From contig OX597841.1 in NCBI GenBank assembly GCA_951406725.2, forward strand, positions 248,001 through 312,000: 64,000 nt of DNA, written 5' to 3'. Both the position numbers and the translations under genes were made by a program. Position 1 is the first letter of the stretch. Every line of letters starts with the position of its first letter. The notes beneath the pieces were generated by a model, which was not told where the DNA came from, made no database searches, and saw only the letters and a list, made by a program, of their open reading frames with translations. The DNA is from Octopus vulgaris (lineage: Eukaryota). Shown here piece after piece: positions 20,058 to 59,363 of the stretch.

Positions 20058-20113
<56 letters not shown>

Positions 20114-20624: not shown

Positions 20625-20696
<72 letters not shown>

Positions 20697-25742: not shown

Positions 25743-25790
<48 letters not shown>

Positions 25791-26572: not shown

Positions 26573-26610
26573 CTGTGTGTGTGTGTTACATGTATGCTCA
26601 TGTTTTTCAG

Positions 26611-26774
26611 GTGAAACTGGTGATTTATAAAAACCAAACACCTGTTGTGACTATGATTTTTGATGGACGAAATTCAAACCTTGAAAGCTGGTTCTCTCAT
26701 GCAAACTTGAAAAGTTCTCCATGGAATGACCTATCTTCAGACAACCCACAGTATTTCACGATCGAAGGAATGGA
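26611..26774 (+). CDS. Gene B exon 3 (164 bp)
   Basis: Acceptor TTTTTCAG|GTGAAA, phase-2 donor ATGGA|GTAAGT. Encodes VKLVIYKNQTPVVTMIFDGRNSNLESWFSHANLKSSPWNDLSSDNPQYFTIEGM. Confidence 0.92.
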
Positions 26775-28052
26775 GTAAGTTCTAAATATACTTTTCTTTT
26801 TCTCTTTGTAGAAACGTAATATACCAAAAGCACTTTACGCACGCTACTAATATATATATATATATATATATATATCTGTTTCTTAACACTATATATTTAT
26901 TCACGATATTTTCTTGAAGCGACCAAAGCATTTCCAGGCTTTCACTATAATATCTTCATTGAATATGTTATACAGAGTACAAATTTGAACTACATCTGGT
27001 TCCCTCACTAATAATGAAATATAATATATCCAAACTGTCGGCTGATTTGTGAACCCTGCTGATTTCTTAATTATAATTGTCCTGTATCATTAGAAACTAA
27101 ATTTGATTTGGTATGCGGTTGCTGGTGGGTACTTACTGCTGATGACATTCAAAGTAGTAGAGATACATATTTAGCAATTCCATCGCAGCTGCTAGATGCT
27201 ATTTGTCTATTACTGGGGCATTTCTGTAATTTTTAACACTGTTCCTCTATATGAGTTGCTTTCTGGATACGAATAACGAAGTTTTCCGTTTTCAACAGTG
27301 TATCTACATTAAGTGGCCTGTTTTAAAGTGGGGAAACACGAAAATATACATTCACCTTAAAATGTATGCTATAACTAGTTTTACTTGCGCGTGTTCGTTT
27401 TTAAATATTCTTTATTCCATTATATTATTTCTCTTAATTACCAGAATCCATTGCACGCTTAGTTTCCTAATGTGTTTAACAAGGGAAAATGTTATGGTTG
27501 TTATATTTGTGGCGCTTTTTCTTACAAATTTTAACTGACGTCTACTTCGTGTGTAATTTATTATTTCTTTGCGTAATTGTACGAGTGTATTTCTGTGTGA
27601 GTGTGTGTGTGTCTGCGTGAATGCGTTCGTGCGTGTGTGTGCGTGCTTATGCGTGTGTTCACGCACCTATGTTGTAAGATAGATCCCGTTGTGAATTTAC
27701 TTTCTGCCTAATCAAAGAAATCTATTGACGGCTGTTGGAGCCGTCACTACAGATTTTAACAGACTGGTATAGATGTCTTTGTATCGTACCTGACGTGTAT
27801 ATACACTCTCGACAGTCCAGTTACTGCAATATTTGTCCTGAGATAGCATTTGTTTTCTCTCATTGTCTACTCAGGGAAAATACTACAGAAACTAGCCTAT
27901 CGACTGTGTGTATATCCTTTCAATATGATACACAAATGGCTATTTTAATTAAATACTGGTTCAAATGTGTACATCGAACATAATGGTTTATTTAATAAAT
28001 GTTTATATTTTCTCATTCTGAAACCCAAACGAATTTCTCTCCAACTTTGTAG

Positions 28053-28216
28053 CGGCGTACGTCGCTTCTATATAACGAACCACAACGGTGGCTGTCTTGT
28101 TGAGAGTGGCTGGCTAGCCGTAGTTCAAGATCAAATTTACTGTGCATATGATGAAATGGATCACTTCCCTGCAATTCGTTATTCTGATGCAAAATCGAAA
28201 ACCATCTGGAACAACG
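28053..28216 (+). CDS. Gene B exon 4 (164 bp)
   Basis: Acceptor TTTGTAG|CGGCGTA, phase-1 donor AACG|GTAAGT. Encodes GVRRFYITNHNGGCLVESGWLAVVQDQIYCAYDEMDHFPAIRYSDAKSKTIWNN. Confidence 0.92.
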
Positions 28217-28716
28217 GTAAGTGATGCTTCTATTTTATGTCTTTGTGTGCTTCTCTCTCTCTCTCCCTATCTATCTGTCTGTCAATCTCCCTGACTATCT
28301 ACCTGTCTATCTATCTATCTATACACGATCCTTATTGATCGGCCCCATTTTCCTTTTTTTTTTTTACACGATCCCTTTTGATCGGAATTCGACCCCTCTT
28401 TTTTCTTTCTTTTTTTCTCCTTCTCTTGTTCCCCAAAAGAAAAGCACTACTTTATATTTTGCCCCTTCTGTGTCTAGCCCCTGCGTGGCCAATAAATAAA
28501 TCGATTCTCAATGTGAGTAGTAATTGCAGCCAATCAGCCTGATCCAACTGATTTATGATCAAAGGTGTTCTGACCATGACCCACCTGGATATTTCCCATT
28601 ACACTATGTGTAGACTTGGCTGCAATTTCTAGTAATTCGAGTGACCACCTATAAAGCCCTCCAACGATATATTTGAATGTCTTTTTGTTGTTGATGTTGT
28701 TATTTGTTACTTGCAG

Positions 28717-28772
28717 GTTATGCATTAGCAGACTCCATGGCCATATTCATCCGCCTGAGGCAGCAGAACTAA
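28717..28772 (+). CDS. Gene B exon 5 coding part (56 bp); full CDS 894 bp, 297 aa
   Basis: Acceptor TTGCAG|GTTATGCA. Encodes (G)YALADSMAIFIRLRQQN*. All five exons join in frame (331+179+164+164+56=894). Confidence 0.9.
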
Positions 28773-28871
28773 CCCAGCACATGATATCCATTGATACTAT
28801 TGTTGTTGTTAACGCCCATCCAATCCAGCTGACCACCACTAGTGATCCGCATAGGTCAAGTAATACCTGTT

Positions 28872-28877
28872 AATAAA
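28872..28877 (+). promoter_or_regulatory. Candidate polyadenylation signal of gene B
   Basis: AATAAA ~100 bp after the stop codon; retained at the equivalent place in gene C (TTTATT near 56984). Confidence 0.55.
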
Positions 28878-30145
28878 GAATTCATAAAAAAATATTGGTG
28901 ATCTTTCGTATTGAGTCGACAATTTATAAGCAGGCTTCTTCGGTAATTTCTGTGAACACGCGATCTCTTATCAACTGCGTGCTTCTTCTGTCTGACGTGA
29001 CGAAGTGGAAGGGGAAGCTAATGGACCTACGTCTGTGTGTGTGTGTGTGTGCGTGTGCGTGCTTCTTTTTGTGTGTGTGTGAGTGCTTGTTCTGTTTTTA
29101 TGTATTTATGGGTGTGGAATGTAGATATAAAAGCCTTGTGTATTTTTTCTTACCTGCTTCATGTGTGTAAGTAAAATCTGTAAATTTCCAAAAAGAAAAC
29201 GAGATTGACGTCGAAAAGCCATCACAGTTATAGTACACACACACACACAAACACACACGTGAACAAGCACGCGCGCACAAGAACAAACTCACACAATCAT
29301 ACACTCGTTAGCTTCCTCTTCCTCAATCAGCAAAAGCACGCAGTTGGCAAGACAACACGTGCTCATGGAAACTAACGAATATTTTGTTTTCATTCGTCTA
29401 CTCAAAACGAAGCCATGCCAAATTATTCCACCCAACATCGGTCTTTTGAGTTGTGATTCTCTTTCTCTCTCTCCAGGGACAGAACTGTTTTTGTTATTGT
29501 TCCATGTCAAATCTGACCAAAAATATGCATGGGTGTGTGTGTGTATGTGTGTGAACGTCTTTATTTGTATTAAAGCTACCAATGGTTTCAGGTCATGAAA
29601 ATATCGTTATATCTTAACAATTTTTCAAGGCCATCACATGAAGGAACAGATTTCGTCTCCATTTTGTGTTATAAACCTTAATGGAGAAAAACAACCATGT
29701 GATCGGCTCGAAAAATTGTTAAGATAGGAGTGGCTGTGTGATACGTACCTTGCTTACCAGCTACATGGTTCCTTTGGCAAGTGCATTCTACTATAGCCTC
29801 AGGCCGACCAAAGCCTTCTAAGTGGATTTGCTAGATTGAAAGTGAAAGAAGCCCGTCGTATACATATTGAGTGTGTGTCTGTGTGTCTGTGTTTGTCCCC
29901 CCAACATCACTTCACAACCGATGCTGGTGCGTTTACGCCCCCGCAACTTGGGGGTTTAGTAAAAGAGAATGATAGAATAAGTACTAGGCTTACAAAGAAT
30001 AAGCACTGCAGCAGATTTGCTCGGGTAAAGGTGCTGCTACAGCATGGCCGCATTCAAATGACTGAAACATAAGAGTAGAAGAATAAAAGAATATTTTCTA
30101 AACATGAATAAAATGGTAGCATTAATGCTCCAATAATATGATTAA

Positions 30146-30204
<59 letters not shown>

Positions 30205-30809
30205 CAACAGACTTCTTTCAGTTTCCGCCAACCAAATCTACTCACAAGGCTTTGGTCGGCCAGACTCGAAGATATTTGCGAAAGTTGCCCCGAAATGGGA
30301 CTGAACATGGAACCAAGTGGTTGGTAAGCAAATAAGTAACTTTATAATTACATGAGTATAAATTATCAAATAATTATTTAGTAGTTGTGAGCATGCGAAT
30401 TTACAGTCAGAAGACATAAATACTTTAAAATATAATAGTTTATGAAATATACGCTGAGTGAAAAGTATTATGTGGATTTCTTACATGCTAAAAATAGCAG
30501 TCAAAGTCTAAAACCACGAAAGAATATTCTTACATTAAAGCACGTTGATTTGTAATCAAGCAACACATTTGAGTGAATAAAAATATAGTAAACCTTATAC
30601 TAAAGAGTTTCGGTATTAATGACAAAATAAATCAATTAATGAAATAATTTATTGATTAATTAATTTTCTATAGCTCGTCGGAAAGGTCGCTAATTGAATG
30701 CATAAACATAAAACTGCAATACATATCGAAAACACAAATTAAACAGATGCGCACTCTGGTCCATGTTTATGCATCATTGATTCATCTCAGAATGACCGCA
30801 AACAATGTG

Positions 30810-30874
<65 letters not shown>

Positions 30875-30980
30875 TATTAGAGACAAAACCACTATTTTGC
30901 AAAACAAACAAGGAAAGACTTAATCAATACATAAAATTTTAATAAATAGTCAAAAAAAAAATATATATATATATATATAT

Positions 30981-31243
30981 CCTCCCGAAGAACCTAAGAG
31001 ACCTGCATGGGGTGGATTCAGATATCTTTAAAATGAATCTGGATCTCTTCCTGTCAGGTATCCCAGATAAACCAACTTCACGGCAGGAGGTGCAGATGAG
31101 GGCAGCTGCATCGAACTCTCTCATGCACCAAATGGCAGTTGCTAAAAAGCTTTCGTGAAGTAAAACCATGTAGCAACACCGAATGGCGGTGCCCCAGCTT
31201 GGCCACTGCTCATGAGCTGAAACTAGAATCAATCAATCAATCA
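30981..31243 (+). mobile_element. 5'-truncated LINE 3' end (CR1/Jockey-group-like) with (AATC)n tail
   Basis: LPKNLRDLHGVDSDIFKMNLDLFLSGIPDKP...AASNSLMHQ, short 3' UTR and AATCAATCAATC tail, embedded in (TA)n. Confidence 0.7.
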
Positions 31244-31263
31244 TATATATATATATATATATA

Positions 31264-34200
31264 GTAGACAATTTAGGGTAGCAAAAAAAAAATTCAATAG
31301 AAATTTATCGCTACCAGCGGCCTAGTGGAAAAGAGAAAATAGTCAACGACTAAATATATAAATATAACAATTTAGGAGTGACCCTAACAGGTCATTCGTC
31401 TACCAGAAAGAGCAGCCATAACTCACACCGCCAAGTAGTAGTAATTCAGAAATTAGGTGAAAATTTAAAAGCATTTACCCTAATTCATCTTTTAGACGAT
31501 GCATCGTTTCTGTGTCATTAATGATTAAATTAGCTTAATTAAATTAAATTAAGCCAATCTACCATAGGTTACACTTCATCAGTAAAAAACCTGGGAGAGA
31601 CAAATATACACGAGGCGTCTGTATCGATGCCTACGGAATATCTGTCTTAAAATTTTCAAGACTGACGTATTCGCGCCAAACTTATCAGCAGTAAATATAA
31701 ACTGCCGATTCAATCTCAGAATTATTCAGAAAATTATCAATTAGTCAATTTAGGGTAGCAAAAAAAATTCAATAGAAATTTATCGCTACCAGCGGCCTAG
31801 TGGAAAAGAGAAAATAGTCAACGACTAAATATATAAATATAACAATTTAGGAGTGACCCTAACAGGTCATTCGTCCACCAGAAAGAGCAGCCATAACTCA
31901 CACCGCCAAGTAGTAGTAATTCAGAAATTAGGTGAAAATTTAAAAACATTTACCCTAATTCATCTTTTAGACGATGCATCGTTTCTGTGTCATTAATGAT
32001 TAAATTAGCTTAATTAAATTAAATTAAGCCAATCTACCATAGGTTACACTTCATCAGTAAAAAACCTGGGAGAGACAAATATACACGAGGCGTCTGTATC
32101 GATGCCTACGGAATATCTGTCTTAAAATTTTCAAGACTGACGTATTCGCGCCAAACTTATCAGCAGTAAATATAAACTGCCGATTCAATCTCAGAATTAT
32201 TCAGAAAATTATCAATTAGTCAATTTAGGGTAGCAAAAAAAAATTCAATAGAAATTTATCGCTACCAGCGGCCTAGTGGAAAAGAGAAAATAGTCAACGA
32301 CTAAATATATAAATATAACAATTTAGGAGTGACCCTAACAGGTCATTCGTCCACCAGAAAGAGCAGCCATAACTCACACCGCCAAGTAGTAGTAATTCAG
32401 AAATTAGGTGAAAATTTAAAAACATTTACCCTAATTCATCTTTTAGACGATGCATCGTTTCTGTGTCATTAATGATTAAATTAGCTTAATTAAATTAAAT
32501 TAAGCCAATCTACCATAGGTTACACTTCATCAGTAAAAAACCTGGGAGAGACAAATATACACGAGGCGTCTGTATCGATGCCTACGGAATATCTGTCTTA
32601 AAATTTTCAAGACTGACGTATTCGCGCCAAACTTATCAGCAGTAAATATAAACTGCCGATTCAATCTCAGAATTATTCAGAAAATTATCAATTAGTCAAT
32701 TTAGGGTAGCAAAAAAATTCAATAGAAATTTATCGCTACCAGCGGCCTAGTGGAAAAGAGAAAATAGTCAACGACTAAATATATAAATATAACAATTTAG
32801 GAGTGACCCTAACAGGTCATTCGTCCACCAGAAAGAGCAGCCATAACTCACACCGCCAAGTAGTAGTAATTCAGAAATTAGGTGAAAATTTAAAAACATT
32901 TACCCTAATTCATCTTTTAGACGATGCATCGTTTCTGTGTCATTAATGATTAAATTAGCTTAATTAAATTAAATTAAGCCAATCTACCATAGGTTACACT
33001 TCATCAGTAAAAAACCTGGGAGAGACAAATATACACGAGTTGTCTGTATCGATGCCAACGGAATATCTGTCTTAAAATTTTCAAGACTGACGTATTCGCG
33101 CCAAACTTATCAGCAGTAAATATAAACTGCCGATTCAATCTCAGAATTATTCAGAAAATTATCAATTAGTCAATAAAGGGTAGCAAAAAAATTCAATAGA
33201 AATTTATCGCTACCAGCGGCCTTGTGGAAAAGAGAAAATAGTCAACGACTAAATATATAAATATAACAATTTAGGAGTGACCCTAACAGGTCATTCGTCC
33301 ACCAGAAAGAGCAGCCATAACTCACACCGCCAAGTAGTAGTAATTCAGAAATTAGGTGAAAATTTAAAAACATTTACCCTAATTCATCTTTTAGACGATG
33401 CATCGTTTCTGTGTCATTAATGATTAAATTAGCTTAATTAAATTAAATTAAGCCAATCTACCATAGGTTACACTTCATCAGTAAAAAACCTGGGAGAGAC
33501 AAATATACACGAGGCGTCTGTATCGATGCCTACGGAATATCTGTCTTAAAATTTTCAAGACTGACGTATTCGCGCCAAACTTATCAGCAGTAAATATAAA
33601 CTGCCGATTCAATCTCAGAATTATTCAGAAAATTATCAATTAGTCAATTTAGGGTAGCAAAAAAAAATTCAATAGAAATTTATCGCTACCAGCGGCCTAG
33701 TGGAAAAGAGAAAATAGTCAACGACTAAATATATAAATATAACAATTTAGGAGTGACCCTAACAGGTCATTCGTCCACCAGAAAGAGCAGCCATAACTCA
33801 CACCGCCAAGTAGTAGTAATTCAGAAATTAGGTGAAAATTTAAAAACATTTACCCTAATTCATCTTTTAGACGATGCATCGTTTCTGTGTCATTAATGAT
33901 TAAATTAGCTTAATTAAATTAAATTAAGCCAATCTACCATAGGTTACACTTCATCAGTAAAAAACCTGGGAGAGACAAATATACACGAGGCGTCTGTATC
34001 GATGCCTACGGAATATCTGTCTTAAAATTTTCAAGACTGACGTATTCGCGCCAAACTTATCAGCAGTAAATATAAACTGCCGATTCAATCTCAGAATTAT
34101 TCAGAAAATTATCAATTAGTCAATTTAGGGTAGCAAAAAAAATTCAATAGAAATTTATCGCTACCAGCGGCCTAGTGGAAAAGAGAAAATAGTCAACGAC

Positions 34201-37200
34201 TAAATATATAAATATAACAATTTAGGAGTGACCCTAACAGGTCATTCGTCCACCAGAAAGAGCAGCCATAACTCACACCGCCAAGTAGTAGTAATTCAGA
34301 AATTAGGTGAAAATTTAAAAACATTTACCCTAATTCATCTTTTAGACGATGCATCGTTTCTGTGTCATTAATGATTAAATTAGCTTAATTAAATTAAATT
34401 AAGCCAATCTACCATAGGTTACACTTCATCAGTAAAAAACCTGGGAGAGACAAATATACACGAGGCGTCTGTATCGATGCCTACGGAATATCTGTCTTAA
34501 AATTTTCAAGACTGACGTATTCGCGCCAAACTTATCAGCAGTAAATATAAACTGCCGATTCAATCTCAGAATTATTCAGAAAATTATCAATTAGTCAATT
34601 TAGGGTAGCAAAAAAAATTCAATAGAAATTTATCGCTACCAGCGGCCTAGTGGAAAAGAGAAAATAGTCAACGACTAAATATATAAATATAACAATTTAG
34701 GAGTGACCCTAACAGGTCATTCGTCCACCAGAAAGAGCAGCCATAACTCACACCGCCAAGTAGTAGTAATTCAGAAATTAGGTGAAAATTTAAAAACATT
34801 TACCCTAATTCATCTTTTAGACGATGCATCGTTTCTGTGTCATTAATGATTAAATTAGCTTAATTAAATTAAATTAAGCCAATCTACCATAGGTTACACT
34901 TCATCAGTAAAAAACCTGGGAGAGACAAATATACACGAGGCGTCTGTATCGATGCCTACGGAATATCTGTCTTAAAATTTTCAAGACTGACGTATTCGCG
35001 CCAAACTTATCAGCAGTAAATATAAATTGCCGATTCAATCTCAGAATTATTCAGAAAATTATCAATTAGTCAATGTAGGGTAGCAAAAAAATTCAATAGA
35101 AATTTATCGCTACCAGCGGCCTTGTGGAAAAGAGAAAATAGTCAACGACTAAATATATAAATATAACAATTTAGGAGTGACCCTAACAGGTCATTCGTCC
35201 ACCAGAAAGAGCAGCCATAACTCACACCGCCAAGTAGTAGTAATTCAGAAATTAGGTGAAAATTTAAAAACATTTACCCTAATTCATCTTTTAGACGATG
35301 CATCGTTTCTGTGTCATTAATGATTAAATTAGCTTAATTAAATTAAATTAAGCCAATCTACCATAGGTTACACTTCATCAGTAAAAAACCTGGGAGAGAC
35401 AAATATACACGAGGCGTCTGTATCGATGCCTACGGAATATCTGTCTTAAAATTTTCAAGACTGACGTATTCGCGCCAAACTTATCAGCAGTAAATATAAA
35501 CTGCCGATTCAATCTCAGAATTATTCAGAAAATTATCAATTAGTCAATTTAGGGTAGCAAAAAAATTCAATAGAAATTTATCGCTACCAGCGGCCTAGTG
35601 GAAAAGAGAAAATAGTCAACGACTAAATATATAAATATAACAATTTAGGAGTGACCCTAACAGGTCATTCGTCCACCAGAAAGAGCAGCCATAACTCACA
35701 CCGCCAAGTAGTAGTAATTCAGAAATTAGGTGAAAATTTAAAAACATTTACCCTAATTCATCTTTTAGACGATGCATCGTTTCTGTGTCATTAATGATTA
35801 AATTAGCTTAATTAAATTAAATTAAGCAATCTACCATAGGTTACACTTCATCAGTAAAAAACCTGGGAGAGACAAATATACACGAGGCGTCTGTATCGAT
35901 GCCTACGGAATATCTGTCTTAAAATTTTCAAGACTGACGTATTCGCGCCAAACTTATCAGCAGTAAATATAAACTGCCGATTCAATCTCAGAATTATTCA
36001 GAAAATTATCAATTAGTCAATTTAGGGTAGCAAAAAAAATTCAATAGAAATTTATCGCTACCAGCGGCCTAGTGGAAAAGAGAAAATAGTCAACGACTAA
36101 ATATATAAATATAACAATTTAGGAGTGACCCTAACAGGTCATTCGTCCACCAGAAAGAGCAGCCATAACTCACACCGCCAAGTAGTAGTAATTCAGAAAT
36201 TAGGTGAAAATTTAAAAACATTTACCCTAATTCATCTTTTAGACGATGCATCGTTTCTGTGTCATTAATGATTAAATTAGCTTAATTAAATTAAATTAAG
36301 CTAATCTACCATAGGTTACACTTCATCAGTAAAAAACCTGGGAGAGACAAATATACACGAGGCGTCTGTATCGATGCCTACGGAATATCTGTCTTAAAAT
36401 TTTCAAGACTGACGTATTCGCGCCAAACTTATCAGCAGTAAATATAAACTGCCGATTCAATCTCAGAATTATTCAGAAAATTATCAATTAGTCAATTTAG
36501 GGTAGCAAAAAAAATTCAATAGAAATTTATCGCTACCAGCGGCCTAGTGGAAAAGAGAAAATAGTCAACGACTAAATATATAAATATAACAATTTAGGAG
36601 TGACCCTAACAGGTCATTCGTCCACCAGAAAGAGCAGCCATAACTCACACCGCCAAGTAGTAGTAATTCAGAAATTAGGTGAAAATTTAAAAACATTTAC
36701 CCTAATTCATCTTTTAGACGATGCATCGTTTCTGTGTCATTAATGATTAAATTAGCTTAATTAAATTAAATTAAGCTAATCTACCATAGGTTACACTTCA
36801 TCAGTAAAAAACCTGGGAGAGACAAATATACACGAGGCGTCTGTATCGATGCCTACGGAATATCTGTCTTAAAATTTTCAAGACTGACGTATTCGCGCCA
36901 AACTTATCAGGAGTAAATATAAACTGCCGATTCAATCTCAGAATTATTCAGAAAATTATCAATTAGTAGATTTAGGGTAGCAAAAAAAAATTCAATAGAA
37001 ATTTATCGCTACCAGCGGCCTAGTGGAAAAGAGAAAATAGTCAACGACTAAATATATAAATATAACAATTTAGGAGTGACCCTAACAGGTCATTCGTCCA
37101 CCAGAAAGAGCAGCCATAACTCACACCGCCAAGTAGTAGTAATTCAGAAATTAGGTGAAAATTTAAAAACATTTACCCTAATTCATCTTTTAGACGATGC

Positions 37201-37790
37201 ATCGTTTCTGTGTCATTAATGATTAAATTAGCTTAATTAAATTAAATTAAGCTAATCTACCATAGGTTACACTTCATCAGTAAAAAACCTGGGAGAGACA
37301 AATATACACGAGGCGTCTGTATCGATGCCTACGGAATATCTGTCTTAAAATTTTCAAGACTGACGTATTCGCGCCAAACTTATCAGCAGTAAATATAAAC
37401 TGCCGATTCAATCTCAGAATTATTCAGAAAATTATCAATTAGTCAATTTAGGGTAGCAAAAAAATTCAATAGAAATTTATCGCTACCAGCGGCCTAGTGG
37501 AAAAGAGAAAATAGTCAACGACTAAATATATAAATATAACAATTTAGGAGTGACCCTAACAGGTCATTCGTCCACCAGAAAGAGCAGCCATAACTCACAC
37601 CGCCAAGTAGTAGTAATTCAGAAATTAGGTGAAAATTTAAAAACATTTACCCTAATTCATCTTTTAGACGATGCATCGTTTCTGTGTCATTAATGATTAA
37701 ATTAGCTTAATTAAATTAAATTAGCAATCTACCATAGGTACACTTCATCAGTAAAAAACCTGGGAGAGACAAATATACACAAGGCGTCTG
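31264..37790 (-). repeat. ~475-bp tandem array, left half (13 full + 1 partial units; hammerhead sense on minus strand)
   Basis: Marker TAGGGTAGCAAAA recurs at about 31274, 31751, 32226, 32702, 33176, 33650, 34126, 34601, 35076, 35550, 36023, 36498, 36973 and 37449 (period 473-477). Units are nearly identical. Confidence 0.97.
31488..31589 (-). ncRNA. Type I hammerhead-ribozyme-like motif (representative of 14 minus-strand copies)
   Basis: Reverse complement of the same motif: TCTTTTAGACGATGCATCGTTTCTGTGT...ACACTTCATCAGTAAAAAA. Confidence 0.75.
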
Positions 37791-40700
37791 TTTTTGCTAC
37801 CCTAAATTGACTAATTGATAATTTTCTGAATAATTCTGAGATTGAATCGGCAGTTTATATTTACTGCTGATAAGTTTGGCGCGAATACGTCAGTCTTGAA
37901 AATTTTAAGACAGATATTCCGTAGGCATCGATACAGACGCCTCGTGTATATTTGTCTCTCCCAGGTTTTTTACTGATGAAGTGTAACCTATGGTAGATTA
38001 GCTTAATTTAATTTAATTAAGCTAATTTAATCATTAATGACACAGAAACGATGCATCGTCTAAAAGATGAATTAGGGTAAATGTTTTTAAATTTTCACCT
38101 AATTTCTGAATTACTACTACTTGGCGGTGTGAGTTATGGCTGCTCTTTCTGGTGGACGAATGACCTGTTAGGGTCACTCCTAAATTGTTATATTTATATA
38201 TTTAGTCGTTGACTATTTTCTCTTTTCCACTAGGCCGCTGGTAGCGATAAATTTCTATTGAATTTTTTTGCTACCCTAAATTGACTAATTGATAATTTTC
38301 TGAATAATTCTGAGATTGAATCGGCAGTTTATATTTACTGCTGATAAGTTTGGCGCGAATACGTCAGTCTTGAAAATTTTAAGACAGATATTCCGTAGGC
38401 ATCGATACAGACGCCTCGTGTATATTTGTCTCTCCCAGGTTTTTTACTGATGAAGTGTAACCTATGGTAGATTAGCTTAATTTAATTTAATTAAGCTAAT
38501 TTAATCATTAATGACACAGAAACGATGCATCGTCTAAAAGATGAATTAGGGTAAATGTTTTTAAATTTTCACCTAATTTCTGAATTACTACTACTTGGCG
38601 GTGTGAGTTATGGCTGCTCTTTCTGGTGGACGAATGACCTGTTAGGGTCACTCCTAAATTGTTATATTTATATATTTAGTCGTTGACTATTTTCTCTTTT
38701 CCACTAGGCCGCTGGTAGCGATAAATTTCTATTGAATTTTTTTGCTACCCTAAATTGACTAATTGATAATTTTCTGAATAATTCTGAGATTGAATCGGCA
38801 GTTTATATTTACTGCTGATAAGTTTGGCGCGAATACGTCAGTCTTGAAAATTTTAAGACAGATATTCCTAGGCATCGATACAGACGCCTCGTGTATATTT
38901 GTCTCTCCCAGGTTTTTTACTGATGAAGTGTAACCTATGGTAGATTAGCTTAATTTAATTTAATTAAGCTAATTTAATCATTAATGACACAGAAACGTTG
39001 CATCGTCTAAAAGATGAATTAGGGTAAATGTTTTTAAATTTTCACCTAATTTCTGAATTACTACTACTTGGCGGTGTGAGTTATGGCTGCTCTTTCTGGT
39101 GGACGAATGACCTGTTAGGGTCACTCCTAAATTGTTATATTTATATATTTAGTCGTTGACTATTTTCTCTTTTCCACAAGGCCGCTGGTAGCGATAAATT
39201 TCTATTGAATTTTTTTTTGCTACCCTAAATTGACTAATTGATAATTTTCTGAATAATTCTGAGATTGAATCGGCAGTTTATATTTACTGCTGATAAGTTT
39301 GGCGCGAATACGTCAGTCTTGAAAATTTTAAGACAGATATTCCGTAGGCATCGATACAGACGCCTCGTGTATATTTGTCTCTCCCAGGTTTTTTACTGAT
39401 GAAGTGTAACCTATGGTAGATTAGCTTAATTTAATTTAATTAAGCTAATTTAATCATTAATGACACAGAAACGATGCATCGTCTAAAAGATGAATTAGGG
39501 TAAATGTTTTTAAATTTTCACCTAATTTCTGAATTACTACTACTTGGCGGTGTGAGTTATGGCTGCTCTTTCTGGTGGACGAATGACCTGTTAGGGTCAC
39601 TCCTAAATTGTTATATTTATATATTTAGTCGTTGACTATTTTCTCTTTTCCACAAGGCCGCTGGTAGCGATAAATTTCTATTGAATTTTTTTGCTACCCT
39701 AAATTGACTAATTGATAATTTTCTGAATAATTCTGAGATTGAATCGGCAGTTTATATTTACTGCTGATAAGTTTGGCGCGAATACGTCAGTCTTGAAAAT
39801 TTTAAGACAGATATTCCGTAGGCATCGATACAGACGCCTCGTGTATATTTGTCTCTCCCAGGTTTTTTACTGATGAAGTGTAACCTATGGTAGATTAGCT
39901 TAATTTAATTTAATTAAGCTAATTTAATCATTAATGACACAGAAACGATGCATCGTCTAAAAGATGAATTAGGGTAAATGTTTTTAAATTTTCACCTAAT
40001 TTCTGAATTACTACTACTTGGCGGTGTGAGTTATGGCTGCTCTTTCTGGTGGACGAATGACCTGTTAGGGTCACTCCTAAATTGTTATATTTATATATTT
40101 AGTCGTTGACTATTTTCTCTTTTCCACTAGGCCGCTGGTAGCGATAAATTTCTATTGAATTTTTTTGCTACCCTAAATTGACTAATTGATAATTTTCTGA
40201 ATAATTCTGAGATTGAATCGGCAGTTTATATTTACTGCTGATAAGTTTGGCGCGAATACGTCAGTCTTGAAAATTTTAAGACAGATATTCCCTAGGCATC
40301 GATACAGACGCCTCGTGTATATTTGTCTCTCCCAGGTTTTTTACTGATGAAGTGTAACCTATGGTAGATTAGCTTAATTTAATTTAATTAAGCTAATTTA
40401 ATCATTAATGACACAGAAACGATGCATCGTCTAAAAGATGAATTAGGGTAAATGTTTTTAAATTTTCACCTAATTTCTGAATTACTACTACTTGGCGGTG
40501 TGAGTTATGGCTGCTCTTTCTGGTGGACGAATGACCTGTTAGGGTCACTCCTAAATTGTTATATTTATATATTTAGTCGTTGACTATTTTCTCTTTTCCA
40601 CTAGGCCGCTGGTAGCGATAAATTTCTATTGAATTTTTTTTTGCTACCCTAAATTGACTAATTGATAATTTTCTGAATAATTCTGAGATTGAATCGGCAG

Positions 40701-43700
40701 TTTATATTTACTGCTGATAAGTTTGGCGCGAATACGTCAGTCTTGAAAATTTTAAGACAGATATTCCGTAGGCATCGATACAGACGCCTCGTGTATATTT
40801 GTCTCTCCCAGGTTTTTTACTGATGAAGTGTAACCTATGGTAGATTGGCTTAATTTAATTTAATTAAGCTAATTTAATCATTAATGACACAGAAACGATG
40901 CATCGTCTAAAAGATGAATTAGGGTAAATGTTTTTAAATTTTCACCTAATTTCTGAATTACTACTACTTGGCGGTGTGAGTTATGGCTGCTCTTTCTGGT
41001 GGACGAATGACCTGTTAGGGTCACTCCTAAATTGTTATATTTATATATTTAGTCGTTGACTATTTTCTCTTTTCCACTAGGCCGCTGGTAGCGATAAATT
41101 TCTATTGAATTTTTTTGCTAACCTAAATTGACTAATTGATAATTTTCTGAATAATTCTGAGATTGAATCGGCAGTTTATATTTACTGCTGATAAGTTTGG
41201 CGCGAATACGTCAGTCTTGAAAATTTTAAGACAGATATTCCGTAGGCATCGATACAGACGCCTCGTGTATATTTGTCTCTCCCAGGTTTTTTACTGATGA
41301 AGTGTAACCTATGGTAGATTGGCTTAATTTAATTTAATTAAGCTAATTTAATCATTAATGACACAGAAACGATGCATCGTCTAAAAGATGAATTAGGGTA
41401 AATGTTTTTAAATTTTCACCTAATTTCTGAATTACTACTACTTGGCGGTGTGAGTTATGGCTGCTCTTTCTGGTGGACGAATGACCTGTTAGGGTCACTC
41501 CTAAATTGTTATATTTATATATTTAGTCGTTGACTATTTTCTCTTTTCCACTAGGCCGCTGGTAGCGATAAATTTCTATTGAATTTTTTTTGCTACCCTA
41601 AATCTACTAATTGATAATTTTCTGAATAATTCTGAGATTGAATCGGCAGTTTATATTTACTGCTGATAAGTTTGGCGCGAATACGTCAGTCATGAAAATT
41701 TTAAGACAGATATTCCGTAGGCATCGATACAGACGCCTCGTGTATATTTGTCTCTCCCAGGTTTTTTACTGATGAAGTGTAACCTATGGTAGATTGGCTT
41801 AATTTAATTTAATTAAGCTAATTTAATCATTAATGACACAGAAACGATGCATCGTCTAAAAGATGAATTAGGGTAAATGTTTTTAAATTTTCACCTAATT
41901 TCTGAATTACTACTACTTGGCGGTGTGAGTTATGGCTGCTCTTTCTGGTGGACGAATGACCTGTTAGGGTCACTCCTAAATTGTTATATTTATATATTTA
42001 GTCGTTGACTATTTTCTCTTTTCCACAAGGCCGCTGGTAGCGATAAATTTCTATTGAATTTTTTTTGCTACCCTAAATTGACTAATTGATAATTTTCTGA
42101 ATAATTCTGAGATTGAATCGGCAGTTTATATTTACTGCTGATAAGTTTGGCGCGAATACGTCAGTCTTGAAAATTTTAAGACAGATATTCCGTAGGCATC
42201 GATACAGACGCCTCGTGTATATTTGTCTCTCCCAGGTTTTTTACTGATGAAGTGTAACCTATGGTAGATTGGCTTAATTTAATTTAATTAAGCTAATTTA
42301 ATCATTAATGACACAGAAACGATGCATCGTCTAAAAGATGAATTAGGGTAAATGTTTTTAAATTTTCACCTAATTTCTGAATTACTACTACTTGGCGGTG
42401 TGAGTTATGGCTGCTCTTTCTGGTGGACGAATGACCTGTTAGGGTCACTCCTAAATTGTTATATTTATATATTTAGTCGTTGACTATTTTCTCTTTTCCA
42501 CAAGGCCGCTGGTAGCGATAAATTTCTATTGAATTTTTTTTGCTACCCTAAATTGACTAATTGATAATTTTCTGAATAATTCTGAGATTGAATCGGCAGT
42601 TTATATTTACTGCTGATAAGTTTGGCGCGAATACGTCAGTCTTGAAAATTTTAAGACAGATATTCCGTAGGCATCGATACAGACGCCTCGTGTATATTTG
42701 TCTCTCCCAGGTTTTTTACTGATGAAGTGTAACCTATGGTAGATTGGCTTAATTTAATTTAATTAAGCTAATTTAATCATTAATGACACAGAAACGATGC
42801 ATCGTCTAAAAGATGAATTAGGGTAAATGTTTTTAAATTTTCACCTAATTTCTGAATTACTACTACTTGGCGGTGTGAGTTATGGCTGCTCTTTCTGGTG
42901 GACGAATGACCTGTTAGGGTCACTCCTAAATTGTTATATTTATATATTTAGTCGTTGACTATTTTCTCTTTTCCACTAGGCCGCTGGTAGCGATAAATTT
43001 CTATTGAATTTTTTTGCTACCCTAAATTGACTAATTGATAATTTTCTGAATAATTCTGAGATTGAATCGGCAGTTTATATTTACTGCTGATAAGTTTGGC
43101 GCGAATACGTCAGTCTTGAAAATTTTAAGACAGATATTCCGTAGGCATCGATACAGACGCCTCGTGTATATTTGTCTCTCCCAGGTTTTTTACTGATGAA
43201 GTGTAACCTATGGTAGATTGGCTTAATTTAATTTAATTAAGCTAATTTAATCATTAATGACACAGAAACGATGCATCGTCTAAAAGATGAATTAGGGTAA
43301 ATGTTTTTAAATTTTCACCTAATTTCTGAATTACTACTACTTGGCGGTGTGAGTTATGGCTGCTCTTTCTGGTGGACGAATGACCTGTTAGGGTCACTCC
43401 TAAATTGTTATATTTATATATTTAGTCGTTGACTATTTTCTCTTTCCACTAGGCCGCTGGTAGCGATAAATTTCTATTGAATTTTTTTTTGCTACCCTAA
43501 ATTGACTAATTGATAATTTTCTGAATAATTCTGAGATTGAATCGGCAGTTTATATTTACTGCTGATAAGTTTGGCGCGAATACGTCAGTCTTGAAAATTT
43601 TAAGACAGATATTCCGTAGGCATCGATACAGACGCCTCGTGTATATTTGTCTCTCCCAGGTTTTTTACTGATGAAGTGTAACCTATGGTAGATTGGCTTA

Positions 43701-44358
43701 ATTTAATTTAATTAAGCTAATTTAATCATTAATGACACAGAAACGATGCATCGTCTAAAAGATGAATTAGGGTAAATGTTTTTAAATTTTCACCTAATTT
43801 CTGAATTACTACTACTTGGCGGTGTGAGTTATGGCTGCTCTTTCTGGTGGACGAATGACCTGTTAGGGTCACTCCTAAATTGTTATATTTATATATTTAG
43901 TCGTTGACTATTTTCTCTTTTCCACTAGGCCGCTGGTAGCGATAAATTTCTATTGAATTTTTTTTGCTAACCTAAATTGACTAATTGATAATTTTCTGAA
44001 TAATTCTGAGATTGAATCGGCAGTTTATATTTACTGCTGATAAGTTTGGCGCGAATACGTCAGTCTTGAAAATTTTAAGACAGATATTCCGTAGGCATCG
44101 ATACAGACGCCTCGTGTATATTTGTCTCTCCCAGGTTTTTTACTGATGAAGTGTAACCTATGGTAGATTGGCTTAATTTAATTTAATTAAGCTAATTTAA
44201 TCATTAATGACACAGAAACGATGCATCGTCTAAAAGATGAATTAGGGTAAATGTTTTTAAATTTTCACCTAATTTCTGAATTACTACTACTTGGCGGTGT
44301 GAGTTATGGCTGCTCTTTCTGGTGGACGAATGACCTGTTAGGGTCACTCCTAAATTGT

Positions 44359-44362
<4 letters not shown>
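37791..44362 (+). repeat. ~475-bp tandem array, right half in inverted orientation (13 full + 1 partial units; hammerhead sense on plus strand)
   Basis: Reverse-complement marker TTTTGCTACCCTAAA (or ...AACCTAAA) recurs 14 times from ~37792 to ~43962. Junction is AAGGCGTCTG|TTTTTGCTAC; the array ends in (TA)n. Confidence 0.97.
37966..38067 (+). ncRNA. Type I hammerhead-ribozyme-like motif (representative of 14 plus-strand copies; last at ~44136-44237)
   Basis: TTTTTTA-CTGATGA-A-GTGT...ACAC-A-GAAA-CGATGCATCG-TC-TAAAAGA. Stem I TTTTA/TAAAA, intact CUGAUGA and GAAA boxes, palindromic stem III, GUC cleavage triplet at 38058-38060. The A.A apposition at the base of stem II is non-canonical. Confidence 0.75.
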
Positions 44363-44393
<31 letters not shown>

Positions 44394-47300
44394 ATAATAT
44401 TTGTGACTTGGAACCAGTGAAAGGATAATTAAACTATAGCATTTAACACCAATTCGAAGCCAAACAGTGTTAAACAATGTGTGTGTGTGTGCCTTTTGTT
44501 TGTAATTAAAAAGTGCACTGATAATTTCTGTGATACATGTAGAAACACGCAGGGAGAAGTTGGTGAAAACTGTTTGTGTTACAATGTTTCGAAGTCGATA
44601 ACCAAGTCACGTGGAATTGTTGATAGAGGCAAGAGTGCTTACGTGATTAATTGACGTTAAATGAAGAGGTATCTTTTGAGATGGCAACTAGGAAGGATTT
44701 AAATCGATTGTGTACGAATGCCGAACTATGAGAAAATCCACATTGACGAATACCTTTCTACAATGTAAGTCTTAGTCTAAGCGGAGAAGGAACACACACG
44801 AGGACGGAAAGTCTTTCCTGTAGATGTCACACGTGTATGACGAAAGATTCATGGATAATGGCCATGCGTTAGAATAAGAACAGTAGCAAACGAGTGAAGA
44901 GCGAAGATATGGTGCGTGTGTTTATTTGGCAAATAAACAAGAACAACGACAGTAATTTTATTCAGCTGAATACACGTTATTGATTGGTTGAAATTACCGA
45001 AATACGACAACTTTAACGTGGAATAACTTCGTAAATATAAGTTTTTCTCCAAAATGCTGAGAGTAAAATATGTTTTATATGACACATTCTATCAGTGTCC
45101 GAAGTTTCAAAGTGTTTAGTTGCGAAAAAATTATTTTCTAAATCTGTATGTCAAAAGGTAAAGATCCTATAACGAGATAATAAATAACGTCCTCGCAAAT
45201 CGTTGTACTCAAGATACACAATACTTGTACTTACACTCGACAATATGCAACTCTCGGCTTTACACAGCTCACCGACTCTCCTTTTCTTTATTTGGCACCC
45301 AGGCCTTAACAGAGAGGGGACATCAAAAGGACAGACAGAACACAACAAATGGGGACAAAAAATATGCAGCGAACGCAAAATGAAAAAATGTATAATGAAA
45401 TCGATCCTGATGAAATGGCTGCATGAGCCCAACTCTGATTCTTTATTTAGGCACTCGGCAACTAACACGGAGGGGACACTACAAGGACAGACACAACACC
45501 ACAGTGGGGACAATAAACATAATAACGAATGAGCATGACTATTATATAATAATGAAAGATGAATGGTTGCATGAGCCCCACTCACAAGCAGTACCATTTA
45601 ACTGTTAATTTAGACAATTTTTTAGTTTTCTTTTATCTTTTTGCATTTTCTTTCCCATTTAAAAAAAAATCTATTTCCTTCATTTTTTCTTTCTTATTTT
45701 TTCTTCTCTTTTTACCTTTTTAAAGGACTCCTCTATTACCATTCATTAGGGGCATTAATTCCTCGTATTTATCTTCTTTTGGTAGTTGCTCAAATTAAAT
45801 TTCTTTCCCCAAAGGTTTCACATAGTTCTTTCAACCTTTTATACCTTTCCTTGTCAATCGCCACACCCTTGATGTGTTCCAGCTAACGTTCAGCTGGCAA
45901 TCCTATTCTTATGGCACCTTTGAATTTCCTTATTTTTCGCTCTATGTCGGTGCCGTTCACATATATTACTACAATCCACTTTTTCTTATTAGTAATTACT
46001 TGGTTACGCTCCGGACATGGGCCGTCCTGGCTATTCGTTTCCCTTCGTTCCTCCCTCTGTACATAACCATAACCGTCCACGATTATATTTTCCAATCTAT
46101 GTAGCGATACTTCTGCTGGGGTATCTGCCAGTTCATTGGTACTTCCTCTATTTTCTCAATTTTGCACCGTTGTCACGACTGGAGCGGCATCACGTGATGT
46201 AGAAACTATGTTAGCATGAATGCCTTTGGCAGGCTGAACCTTTTTTGTGCACGTGCTCGAGAATATCACGATGCCAAATATTCTCCATTTTCAAATATAA
46301 TATTCAGTTCTAGGAAAACCAATTTCCTTTAAGGGGATCGAAAACATCCCATTTTCCACCGGTTCTTCAGTTAAATACCCAATATGATAGAGAAAGATTT
46401 ATCAAAACTAAAAAGGGTATATATTCAATTTTGAAGCACTCCGTCGGTTACGACAACGAGGGTTCCGGTTGATCCGAATCAACGGAACAGCCTGCTCGTG
46501 AAATTAACGTGTAAGTGGCTGAGCACTCCACAGACACGTAGTTCTCGGGGATATTCAGCGTGACACAGAGAGTGACAAGGCCGGCCCTTTGAAATACAGG
46601 TACAACAGAAGCAGGAAGTAAGAGAGAGAAAGTTGTGGTGAAAGAGTACAGCAGGGATCACCACCATCCACTGCCGGAGCCTCGTGGAGCTTTAGGTGTT
46701 TTCGCTCAATAAACACTCACAACGCCCGGTCTGGGAATCGAAACCGCGATCCTATTACCGCGAGTGGCTGCCCTAACCACTGGGCCATTGCGCCTCCACA
46801 TATATCCAATATAGATAGATTAAAAGGATAGAGAGAATTACAATTTTAATATTTTTATCTTAATTTATTAACATTATAATACAATTATACTATAGGCGCA
46901 GGAGTGGCTGTGTGGTAAGTAGCTTACTTACCAACCACATGGTTCCGGGTTCAGTCCCACTGCGTGGCACCTGGGGCAAGTGTCTTCTACTATAGCCTTG
47001 GGCCGACCGAAGCCTTGTGAGTGGATTTGGTAAATGGAAACTAAAAGAAGACCGTCGTATATATATATGTATGTGTGTGTATTTGTGTTTGTCTCCCCAA
47101 CATCGCTTGACAACCGATGCTGGTGTGTTTCCGTCCCCGATACATAGCGGTTCGGCGAAAGAGACCGATAGAATAAGTACTCGGCTTACAAAGAATAAGT
47201 CCCGTGGTCGATTTGCTCGAGTAATGGGCGGTTTTCCATTAGACAAATTATTAACATTAGTTATCTCCCTTGCATCCTGTTGAAGCTCAAGTTTCGAACT

Positions 47301-48247
47301 GTACTGCTTTTTTATGTAAATAATTTTTGCTGTTAACATGGTCCGATTTGAATTTTTTCTTCTACGGAAGGAAGAGCAAGCCTTCTTCTGTCATAATCTC
47401 AATTTTGGTCAACCCCACTGCGTAACTGGTACTTAATTTATCGACCCCGAAAAGATGAAAGGCAAAGTTGACATCAGTGGAATTTGAACTCAGAACGTAT
47501 CGGCAGACAAAATACGGCTACGCTCTTCGGCCGGTGTGCTAACGTTTCTGCAAGCTCGCCGCCTTTACTGGCTTTTATATACTTAACGTTATCCCTTTAA
47601 CTTGCTTACGAATGGCAGCATATTGAAAAATAACTTTAAAGGTTAAATTTATAAACAACTTATAAACAAGGGAAAAGAAAAATTCTAATGCGAAATATGC
47701 CGAAAATAGACACATCATCACTAACCATATAAGTTATTGCTATAAGCACGTGTCTCGAAGTAAGCCGACAGAAATTTCTAAAAAACTGAAACGACTGAAA
47801 CGATGCTTCATAAATTGTGTTGCTTCAGAAGAGAAATACTTCGAAGGAGATGAAATCCTGAATTCCTGTGTGTTGTAGTTTCCTCTTTATAGCAGCAGTC
47901 CCGATACGTTTTGATCAGATCTCGCATTGTGATATATATGTACTCACATAATTTAATTATTCCAAGCTATCCTAACTGTCTGATGAACGGTCACGTGAAA
48001 GCCTGGGTAAGAGTTTTCTGAAGGTTTTTCGGTTTTAACAAAACAATGTATATGTGTGTGTGTGTGTGTGTGTGTGCGTGTGTGTGTATGTCTGTGGGTA
48101 TGTGTGTGAGGACGAACGTGTTTGTGTGTGTATGTGTGTGTGATATGCGTTAATTCCGTTGAATTCCGGTTTGAAAATTTGTAAGGTATTGCGATATATT
48201 CTAAATATTAAACAAAAGGTAGACTTATGACACAAACAATATATCAT

Positions 48248-52905: not shown

Positions 52906-55574
52906 AAATTGAATATATACCCTTTTTAGTTTTGATAAATCTTTCTCTATCATATTGGGTATTTAACTGAAGAACCGGTGGAAAATGGGATGTTTTCGAT
53001 CCCTTAAAGGAAATTGGTTTTCCTAGAACTGAATATTATATTTGAAAATGGAGAATATTTGGCATCATGATATTCTCGAGCACGTGCACAAAATGGTTCA
53101 GCCTGCCAAAGGCATTCATGCTAACATAGTTTCTACATCACGTGATGCCGCTCCAGTCGTGTCAACGGTGCAAAATTGAGTAAATAGAGGAGGTACCGAT
53201 GAACTGGCCGATACCCCAGCAGAAGTATCGCTACATAGATTGGAAAATATAATCGTGGACGGTTATGGTTATGTACAGAGGGATGAACGAAGGGAAACGA
53301 ATAGCCAGGACGGCCCATGTCCGGAGCGTAACCAAGTAATTACTAATAAGAAAAAGTGGATTGTAGTAATATATGTGAAAAGCACCGACATAGAGCGAAA
53401 AATAAGGAAATTCAAAGGTGCCATAAGAATAGGATTGCCAGCTGAACGTTAGCTGGAACACATCAAGGGTGTGGCGATTGACAAGGAAAGGTATAAAAGG
53501 TTGAAAGGACTATGTGAACCCTTTGGGGAAAGAAATTTAATTTGAGCAACTACCAAAAGAAGATAAATACGAGGAATTAATACCCCTAATGAATGGTAAT
53601 AGAGGAGTCCTTTAAAAAGGGAAAAAGAGAAGAAAAAATAAGAAAGAAAAAATGAAGGAAATAGATTTTTTTTTAAATGGGAAAGAAAATGCAAAAAGAT
53701 AAAAGAAAACTAAAAAATTGTCTAAATTAACAGTTAAATGGTACTGCTTGTGAGTGGGGCTCATGCAACCATTCATCTTTCATTATTATATAATAGTCAT
53801 GCTCATTCGTTATTATGTTTATTGTCCCCACTGTGGTGTTGTGTCTGTCCTTGTAGTGTCCCCTCCGTGTTAGTTGCCGAGTGCCTAAATAAAGAATCGG
53901 AGTGGGGCTCATGCAGCCATTTCATCAGGATCGATTTCATTATACATTTTTTCATTTTGCGTTCGCTGCATATTTTTTGTCCCCATTTGTTGTGTTCTGT
54001 CTGTCCTTTTGTTGTCCCCTCTCTGTTAAGGCCTGGGTGCCAAATAAAGAAAAGGAGAGTCGGTGAGCTGTGTAAAGCCGAGAGTTGCGTATTGTCGAGT
54101 GTAAGTACAAGTATTGTGTATCTTGAGTACAACGATTTGCGAGGACGTTATTTATTATCTCGTTATAGGATCTTTACCTTTTGACCTACAGATTTAGAAA
54201 ATAATTTTTTCGCAACTAAACACTTTGAAACTTCGGACACTGATAGAATGTGTCATATAAAACATATTTTACTCTCAGCATTTTGGAGAAAAACTTATAT
54301 TTACGAAGTTATTTCACGTTAAAGTTGTCGTATTTCGGTAATTTCAACCAATCAATAACGTGTATTCAGCTGAATAAAATTACTGTCGTTGTTCTTGTTT
54401 ATTTGCCAAATAAACACACGCACCATATCTTCGCTCTTCACTCGTTTACTACTGTTCTTATTCTAACTCATTGCCATTATCCATGAATCTTTCATCATAC
54501 ACGTGTGACATCTACAGGAAAGACTTTCCGTCCTCGTGTGTGTTCCTTCTCCGCTTAGACTAAGACTTACATTGTAGAAAGGCATTCGTCAATGTGGATT
54601 TTCTCATAGTTCGGCATTCGTACACAATCGATTTAAATCCTTCCTAGTTGCCATCTCAAAAGATACCTCTTCATTTAACATCAATTAATCACGTAAGCAC
54701 TCTTGCCTCTATCAACATTTCCACGTGACTTGGTTATCGATTTCGAAACATTGTAACAAGAACAGTTTTCACCAACTTCTCTCTGCGTGTTTCTACATGT
54801 ATCACAGAAATTATCAGTGCACTTTTTAATTACAAACAAAAGGCATACACACACATTGTTTAACACTGTTTGGCTTTGAATTGGTGTTAAATGCTATAGT
54901 TTAATTATCCTTTCACTGGTTCCAAGTCACAAAGATTATATACATGTATATATATATATGTATATGTTGCACCATGTTTGCGGGCATTCTGAGATGAATC
55001 AATGATGCATAAACATGGACCAGAGTGCGCATCTGTTTAATTTGTGTTTTCGATATGTATTGCAGTTTTATGTTTATGCATTTAATTAGCGACCTTTCCG
55101 ACGAGCTATAGAAAATTAATTAATCAATAAATTATTTCATTAAATGATTTATTTTGTCTTTAATAGTGAAACCCTTGAGTATAAGGTTTACTATATTTTT
55201 ATTCACTCAAATGTGTTGCTTGATTACAAATCAACGTGCTTTAATGTAAGAATATTCTTTCGTGGTTTTAGACTTTGACTGCTATTTTTAGCATGTAAGA
55301 AATCCACATGATACTTATCACTCCGCGTATATTTCATATACTATTATATTTAAAAGTATTTATGTCTTCTGACTGTAAATTCGCATGCTCACAACTACTA
55401 AATAATTATTTGATAATTTTTACTCTTGTAATTACAAAGTTACTTATTTGCTTACCAACCACTTGGTTCCATGTTGAGTCCCATTTCGGGGCAACTTTCG
55501 CAAATATCTTCGAGTCTGGCCGACCAAAGCCTTGTGAGTAGATTTGGTTGGCGGAAACTGAAAGAAGTCTGTTG

Positions 55575-55661
<87 letters not shown>

Positions 55662-56265: not shown

Positions 56266-56304
<39 letters not shown>

Positions 56305-56586: not shown

Positions 56587-56625
<39 letters not shown>

Positions 56626-59332: not shown

Positions 59333-59363
<31 letters not shown>

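What the first reader, a model, noticed from the sequence alone, without database searches (positions are those of the whole stretch)
30816..44384. The ribozyme array is a 13-kb palindrome inserted at a (TA)n site, with the empty site preserved in the paralogous arm
Seen: ~13.7 units face left and ~13.8 face right, joined out of register at 37790/37791, with hammerhead-sense 3' ends pointing outward into (TA)n on both sides. The two flanks (...AATGTGCAACATATA at 30805 and TATACATGTATATAATATTTGTGAC at 44383) are adjacent in the right arm at ~54925-54975. The block is therefore an insertion in the left arm (or a clean deletion from the right), and at least one real strand switch is needed if the flank order is right. 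Known: Penelope-like insertions often form inverted structures with 3' ends outward, and some clades target microsatellites. Inference: two opposed priming events with rolling-circle reverse transcription of a circular RNA could give two long, similar-sized concatemers; later unequal crossing-over is the alternative. Read-through would make a ~6.5-kb hairpin.
Basis: partly seen in the sequence, partly recalled or inferred. Interest (0 to 1): 0.8.

Follow-up and report, generated by a model that had tools for sequence, protein, structure and literature searches.

The report
Giant back-to-back ribozyme retroelement insertion
This 13-kb mirror-image array of a 474-base repeat with a predicted self-cutting RNA motif is the longest of more than a hundred copies examined in this animal genome, and the copies' fixed, paired ends and shared variants suggest that a borrowed retrotransposon enzyme likely writes both arms at once from one small RNA circle.

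Summary
Observation largely confirmed. The array is 31265-44371, not from 30816: two unrelated repeat fragments lie in the TA run to its left. Left arm 13.7 and right arm 13.9 units, joined out of register, 3' ends outward in (TA)n. Two paralogous sites are empty, so it is an insertion. It is one of 119 loci examined of a hammerhead retrozyme family. In 71 of 71 loci with both outer ends typed, one arm starts at monomer site A (~134) and the other at site B (~230), never like with like. Both arms share one haplotype in 41 of 43 loci. Six loci carry a minority variant shared between units, five at every second unit and three in both arms, as a re-read dimeric circle would give. Best reading: Penelope-type priming on both strands of a (TA)n break, rolling round one circular RNA. 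The partner enzyme, cleavage and circles are untested. The window's length is an outlier (next arm 3.3 kb) and could not be checked against reads.

The parts
31265..37790 (-). Left arm, 13.7 units; outer end at monomer site B (~228-230, just after CCTAAATTG), inner end at phase 348
37791..44371 (+). Right arm, 13.9 units; inner end at phase 206, outer end at monomer site A (~129-134, just after CCTAAATTG; last bases merge with the TA run)
37790..37791 (.). Head-to-head (5'-to-5') junction, out of register, 1-nt overlap, unique in the genome
43281..43755 (+). One predicted RNA monomer, cut site to cut site (475 nt here); longest stop-free frame 55 codons; fold z = -5.2
43660..43763 (+). One of 28 type I hammerhead motifs: 8-bp stem I, CUGAUGA, long stem II with an A.A mismatch at its base, GAAA, palindromic stem III, predicted cut after GUC at 43755
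31243..31264 (.). (TA)n target, left of the array
44359..44384 (.). (TA)n target, right of the array
30982..31242 (+). Separate insertion: 5'-truncated 3' end of a longer high-copy repeat with (ATCA)n tail (LINE-like by layout; family not identified)
   Evidence: 2804 candidates, 40 scored at 95-100%; 11 of 11 other copies viewed extend further 5'
30869..30961 (.). Separate 93-bp AT-rich repeat fragment between TA runs
   Evidence: ~75% matches at 6014-6178, 19852-19972, 20313-20422, 61359-61484
30814..30868 (.). (TA)27 adjoining the unique left flank
54930..54975 (-). Empty paralogous site (short TA run) in the inverted segmental duplicate
   Evidence: second empty copy in L211
34908..40819 (.). 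Approximate central block in which monomer position 415 is A (outer units on both arms carry G)

Best explanation
The array is one insertion of a non-coding hammerhead retrozyme into a (TA)n microsatellite, likely written by a borrowed Penelope-like RT-endonuclease that would prime on both strands of the target, once at site A and once at site B of the same, probably circular, RNA. Shown by sequence: (TA)n target, empty paralogues, head-to-head arms, strict A+B pairing, one haplotype in both arms, seamless passage through the ribozyme cut site, period-2 variants. Inferred: transcripts of arrays are cut by the hammerheads and closed into monomer and some dimer circles; a two-subunit enzyme binds the RNA near the duplicated CCTAAATTG motif, nicks both strands of the TA run, and each RT runs round the circle; the two cDNA ends are then joined by microhomology-type end joining, giving the out-of-register centre. 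The window is the extreme of this process (about 14 laps per arm), possibly with a change of template at lap 8-10 or later exchange between units.
For: 71 of 71 two-armed loci with both ends typed are A+B (49 of 53 two-armed loci; 13 + 9 more in the later set; chance 2^-71 if ends were independent and equally likely). Six single-armed loci show a short stub of the other end type, seen by eye. Arms share haplotype in 41 of 43 loci against 13% in shuffles; locus-private variants are fixed in all units of both arms. Inner ends fall in register in 10 of 69 loci against 1.1 by permutation and 3-5 under a microhomology null. Arm lengths correlate (rho 0.40, p 0.006, 46 end-selected loci). 214 of 217 cut-site crossings are exact and stops are not enriched there (4 of 189 against 4.75). 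Of 28 other loci with 5 or more pieces, six have shared minority variants; five repeat at lag 2 and three (L045, L054, L059) show the pattern in both arms. Stem III has a compensatory double change that keeps the palindrome (105 against 107 units). The genome holds a young intact 781-aa RT + GIY-YIG family that also ends in (TA)n at two sites ~35 nt apart, one of each in the 2 loci showing both ends. In vitro a Penelope-like protein nicks and extends both strands, starts at two internal RNA sites and is predicted to be a dimer (PMC11167929).
Against: No autonomous element sharing sequence with the unit was found among 50 GIY-YIG loci or the Penelope copy in the window. No RNA, circle or cleavage data; Rfam gives no hammerhead match, the 10.1-11.1 pair is A.A, and the hammerhead fold is 1.6 kcal/mol above the free minimum. 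In vitro the start site did not differ between strands (PMC11167929), so strict pairing is not yet explained by known biochemistry. A linear multimeric transcript explains most observations, including L059. In L041 and L048 alternation stops after four units, which a two-unit DNA duplication also gives. In the window, variants seen nowhere else recur in scattered units of both arms (170A in 6 of 27 against 0 of 183 elsewhere) and do not mirror, which one pass over one circle cannot give; a period-6 hint in the right arm is not significant (p 0.09). No target-site duplication can be read in TA runs.
Confidence: 0.72

Rival explanations
1. Same two-site Penelope priming, but on a linear, uncut multimeric read-through transcript of a source array; no circle is needed.
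For: Seamless cut-site crossings and shared haplotypes follow equally. In-register inner ends (10 of 69) suggest a common RNA 5' end. Unprocessed RNA was the dominant substrate in vitro (PMC11167929).
Against: Locus-private variants fixed in up to 9 units of both arms need a one-unit bottleneck; period-2 variants (L042, L045, L054) need a two-unit template read repeatedly or an earlier such event. No source array with 14 units was found other than the window (all 76 exact A-ends examined).
Confidence: 0.15
2. The architecture is as above, but the window's length is secondary: a short two-armed insertion grew by unequal exchange and arm-to-arm conversion, or by repeated breakage and re-extension at the palindrome centre. 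(Concerns length only; compatible with the best explanation.)
For: Arms 6.5 kb against a maximum of 3.26 kb in 126 others. Window-only variants are shared among non-adjacent units and across arms. The nested G-outside, A-inside block at 415 (permutation p 5e-5) fits growth from the centre. Li et al. 2026 cite unequal crossover as the standard route.
Against: Both 415 states exist elsewhere as uniform loci (L031 and L098 G; L056 A), which fits two RNA templates. No phase break in either arm. A log-normal fit makes one 6.5-kb arm rare, not impossible (p 0.005 per arm).
Confidence: 0.35
3. Unit number, symmetry or the internal variants of the window are assembly or consensus artefacts of a 13-kb palindrome inside a triplicated segment. 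(Concerns this locus only.)
For: T-tract length varies 7-10 here against 6-8 elsewhere; one unit has a cluster of 6 substitutions and the unit at the junction has deletions. No reads could be examined.
Against: Ends are A+B as in 70 other loci; the flanks are in the order of two empty paralogues; the junction is out of register and unique, unlike a fold-back read; a second homopolymer is uniform in 28 of 28 units.
Confidence: 0.2
4. One priming only; the inverted arm is made by fold-back self-priming on the first strand, as proposed for Penelope inverted ends (PMC3846280).
For: Some junctions sit on short palindromes or carry templated snippets. In 50 of 71 loci one arm could be contained in the other.
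Against: In 21 of 71 loci, the window included, neither arm fits inside the other, and in 13 the A arm is too short to hold site B. Fold-back copying gives no reason for the second arm to end at a second fixed site in (TA)n.
Confidence: 0.04

Closest known systems
Metazoan non-LTR retrozymes (Cervera and de la Pena 2020, PMC7229834, passages and Discussion read; Li, Clavereau and Pollet 2026, 10.64898/2026.07.22.740005, parts 1-2 of 5 and passages read)
   Same: Non-coding low-GC tandem units with one type I hammerhead each; proposed circular RNA template copied into tandem cDNA by a Penelope-like RT; arrays up to 62 and 300 units are known, so 27 units is not large for the class.
   Different: Neither main text describes inverted two-armed insertions, fixed paired start sites or (TA)n targeting (word searches; supplements not seen). 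The unit is 474 nt with a very long stem II and an A.A mismatch at its base.
Endonuclease-plus Penelope-like elements (Craig et al. 2021, PMC8557442, passages; Arkhipova et al. 2013, PMC3846280, passages; Frangieh et al. 2024, PMC11167929, parts 1-2 of 4)
   Same: Head-to-head inverted 5' copy, a 'tail' at only one end, two RT start sites, AT-rich or microsatellite targets, palindromic hammerhead stem III.
   Different: No ORF; the two starts are ~97 nt apart rather than 30-40; both arms are multi-unit concatemers; the one-of-each pairing is absolute in 71 loci; no sequence link to a coding element found.
L1 twin priming (recalled, not read)
   Same: Two primers on one RNA give an inverted insertion with 3' ends outward.
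   Different: Here both start sites are fixed and internal, there is no poly(A), and in 57 of 71 loci the two arms hold the same RNA stretch, which needs strand displacement or a circle.

Membership tests
Non-LTR retrozyme | Tandem non-coding units of a few hundred bases, low GC | tested here: met
   474 bp, ~34% GC, longest frame 55 codons
Non-LTR retrozyme | Type I hammerhead motif in each unit | tested here: met
   Core and three stems in 28 units; compensatory change in stem III. Non-canonical A.A at 10.1-11.1; no Rfam match
Non-LTR retrozyme | Dispersed, mobile copies without LTR, PBS or PPT | tested here: met
   119 loci examined on many contigs; two empty paralogues. No terminal repeats other than the unit; PBS and PPT not searched for specifically
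Non-LTR retrozyme | Self-cleavage in vitro | not testable with these tools
   Fold only
Non-LTR retrozyme | Expressed as circular RNA | not testable with these tools
   No read data available; indirect genomic signs only
Penelope-like element (autonomous) | ORF with PLE RT and GIY-YIG endonuclease | tested here: not met
   No ORF in the unit
Penelope-like insertion signature | Inverted 5'-truncated copy, head-to-head | tested here: met
   53 of 79 loci in the first set are two-armed
Penelope-like insertion signature | Tail at one end only (two start sites) | tested here: met
   71 of 71 A+B; spacing ~97 nt, longer than the published 30-40
Non-autonomous derivative of a specific PLE | Sequence shared with the pLTR of a coding element | tested here: inconclusive
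   None among 50 GIY-YIG loci of 6136 candidates, mostly one family, nor in the window's own PLE

The most novel reading that the evidence does not exclude
These loci are a DNA record of a two-headed Penelope enzyme rolling round one circular RNA on both target strands at once, including dimeric circles; the window is a single such event of about 14 laps per head in which both heads changed to a second circle together at lap 8-10. That would explain both the Penelope inverted end with its one-sided tail and the birth of ribozyme satellites in one step.
Probability: 0.3. Interest if true: 0.82.

Novelty: new variant of a known kind. Interest (0 to 1): 0.62.

Why it matters
How Penelope-like elements make their tandem and inverted insertions is called undefined in the literature read here (PMC8557442), and rolling-circle copying of retrozyme circles is a proposal without direct evidence in the papers read (PMC7229834). 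This family gives countable genomic predictions: one A and one B start per insertion, one template for both arms, passage through the cut site, and period-2 variants. It names the RNA region (about 105-235 of the monomer) and a (TA)n target for an in vitro test. If the length is real, it also shows that one retro-insertion can create a 13-kb palindrome.

Tried and rejected
1) An apparent excess of inner ends at the ribozyme cut site (9 against 3.2; 19 against 4.8) was an edge effect of a one-unit query; with a three-unit reference it vanished (4 of 189 against 4.75). Run-off from cleaved linear monomers is therefore not supported. The exact-crossing count had an index slip and was redone. 2) Stops at sites A or B from collisions: no excess. 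3) One arm copied from the other in the window: private variants and T-tract lengths do not mirror. 4) Period-6 structure in the right arm: p 0.09. 5) Partner search: no shared sequence. 6) The two fragments at 30869-31242 as part of the event: the larger lies within 30 bp of an array end at 1 of 78 other loci (L057) and none of its own 11 loci held the young unit. 7) Chimeric join with another locus: junction unique; a 2.8-kb query found no other long array among 39 scored of 1857 candidates, but neither DNA search listed the window itself among its rows shown, so other giant arrays with variant ends could be missed. 8) Rfam: nothing relevant. 9) Raw reads could not be examined, so copy number, expression and circularity stay open. 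Literature searches found no paper describing paired fixed starts or alternating variants in retrozyme insertions; subscription papers and supplements (including Figure S9 of PMC7229834 and the bioRxiv supplements) were not seen.

Full report
Observation. Tandem Repeats Finder gives a 474-bp unit in 13.7 copies at 31265-37791 and 13.9 copies in the opposite orientation at 37791-44371. Each arm has 14 CUGAUGA cores. Numbering the monomer from the base after the predicted GUC cut, the left arm runs from phase 228 (outer) to 348 (inner) and the right arm from 206 (inner) to about 134 (outer). The flanks match an inverted paralogue (27911-30842 with 57958-54937, 90%; 44374-46684 with 54959-52638, 97%) in which they are joined by a short TA run. 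A third copy just upstream of the window is also empty, so this is an insertion. One, 30982-31242, is the truncated 3' end of a longer repeat with an (ATCA)n tail and 2804 candidate copies. The array proper starts at 31265. The organism was not determined by any search; earlier notes of this scan call it an octopus.

The unit. It is non-coding (longest frame 55 codons) and folds better than shuffles (z -5.2). It holds a type I hammerhead motif with an 8-bp stem I, a very long stem II that begins with an A.A mismatch, and a palindromic stem III; the hammerhead fold is -25.0 against a free minimum of -26.6 kcal/mol. Across the family stem III occurs in two forms, 105 and 107 of 217 units, that differ by a compensatory pair and are both palindromic. 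Rfam does not match it. Cleavage is predicted, not shown.

The family. I examined 118 other loci in the same genome: 39 chosen by similarity score, 39 by an end motif, and 40 more as a later check (18 of these were picked from the first 100 rows and are mostly older subfamilies). Outer ends fall at two sites, A (~129-134) and B (~228-230), each just after a copy of CCTAAATTG and each running into (TA)n. In the first 79 loci, 53 are two-armed; 49 have both ends typed and all are A+B, four have one broken end, and 26 are single-armed. In the later 40, 22 more are A+B and none is like with like. Total 71 of 71.

One template for both arms. The family has several haplotypes, yet the two arms agree at diagnostic sites in 41 of 43 loci against 13% (maximum 31%) in shuffled pairs. 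Variants private to a locus are fixed in every unit of both arms, for example three in 9 units of L046. Inner ends are in register within 3 nt in 10 of 69 loci (1.1 expected by permutation, 3-5 under a microhomology null); this could reflect a shared RNA end or the joining step. In 21 of 71 loci neither arm fits inside the other, which argues against fold-back copying.

Signs of a circle. 214 of 217 cut-site crossings are letter-perfect (counted within arms merged with a 3-nt tolerance) and arms do not stop preferentially there once a query-edge artefact is removed. Of 28 other loci with five or more pieces, six have a minority variant shared between units. Reading from the outer ends: L054 -+ and -+-+; L045 -+ and +-+ (an 8-9-bp duplication); L059 -+- and -+-; L042 -+-+-; L041 and L048 +-+----. 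Five of six repeat at lag 2 and three show the pattern in both arms. A dimeric circle read repeatedly by two RTs gives this directly. A linear multimer needs a source that already has the pattern, and L041 and L048 could also be two-unit DNA duplications.

The enzyme. The layout matches Penelope-like insertions: inverted 5' copy and a tail at one end only (PMC8557442; PMC3846280), two internal RT starts and extension of both strands in vitro (PMC11167929). The genome has a young intact 781-aa RT + GIY-YIG family ending in (TA)n at two sites about 35 nt apart, but it shares no sequence with the unit. The partner is not identified.

What is special about this locus. Its arms (6527 and 6584 bp) compare with a median of 530 and a maximum of 3262 in 126 other arms and a maximum of 906 in the later set. 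All 76 exact A-ends in the genome were among the loci examined. It is the most symmetric of 71. Position 415 is G in the outer 9 left and 8 right units and A in the inner ones (p 5e-5; two left units are ambiguous); both states exist as uniform loci elsewhere. That fits a joint change of template, or regrowth from the centre. Other variants (170A in 6 units, 215A in 2, 223C-224T in 2) are absent or nearly absent elsewhere and scattered, which points to later exchange or consensus error. Without reads these cannot be separated.

Comparison and verdict. It works like a Penelope insertion and meets the sequence criteria of a non-LTR retrozyme (PMC7229834; Li et al. 2026); cleavage and circles are untested, and it is not an autonomous element. 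Earlier notes of this scan reached the two-start, Penelope-type reading for sister families in this genome; none matched this unit by sequence and none came up for alternating variants.

Noticed in passing
window 21500-25750: Frameshifted GC-rich Penelope-like element (RT and GIY-YIG pieces, 26-33% to the 781-aa family) ending in (TA)n, with related terminal repeats at 20462-20862 and 21374-21507 that carry a CUGUCGA variant of the hammerhead core. No sequence link to the array.
   Followed up: partly
window 26575-30842, 44374-47623, 51053-59894 and L211: At least three copies of a 7-10-kb segment (90-97% identity), in both orientations, near the start of the contig.
   Followed up: partly
L151-L163 (for example L154:768-4468): Very young intact Penelope-like family: 781-aa RT + GIY-YIG frame preceded in some copies by a 479-aa frame without a clear Pfam match; no CUGANGA core in the 3' terminal region of L154; two ends about 35 nt apart in (TA)n.
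   Followed up: partly
L192:4888-4981; L188; L187: Junctions filled with tandem copies of 17-nt or shorter pieces of the adjacent arm, as in templated end joining.
   Followed up: no
L033: Three-piece insertion with an internal phase jump in one arm (342 to 202), a possible template switch.
   Followed up: no
L193-L206, L147, L038: Older subfamilies (72-93% identity) keep the same A and B ends and show compensatory changes in stem II.
   Followed up: partly
window 16925-18120: 40 copies of a 30-bp minisatellite, 96% identical.
   Followed up: no
window 6065-6465 and 19853-20428: AT-rich fold-back elements between TA runs, related to the 93-bp fragment at 30869.
   Followed up: no
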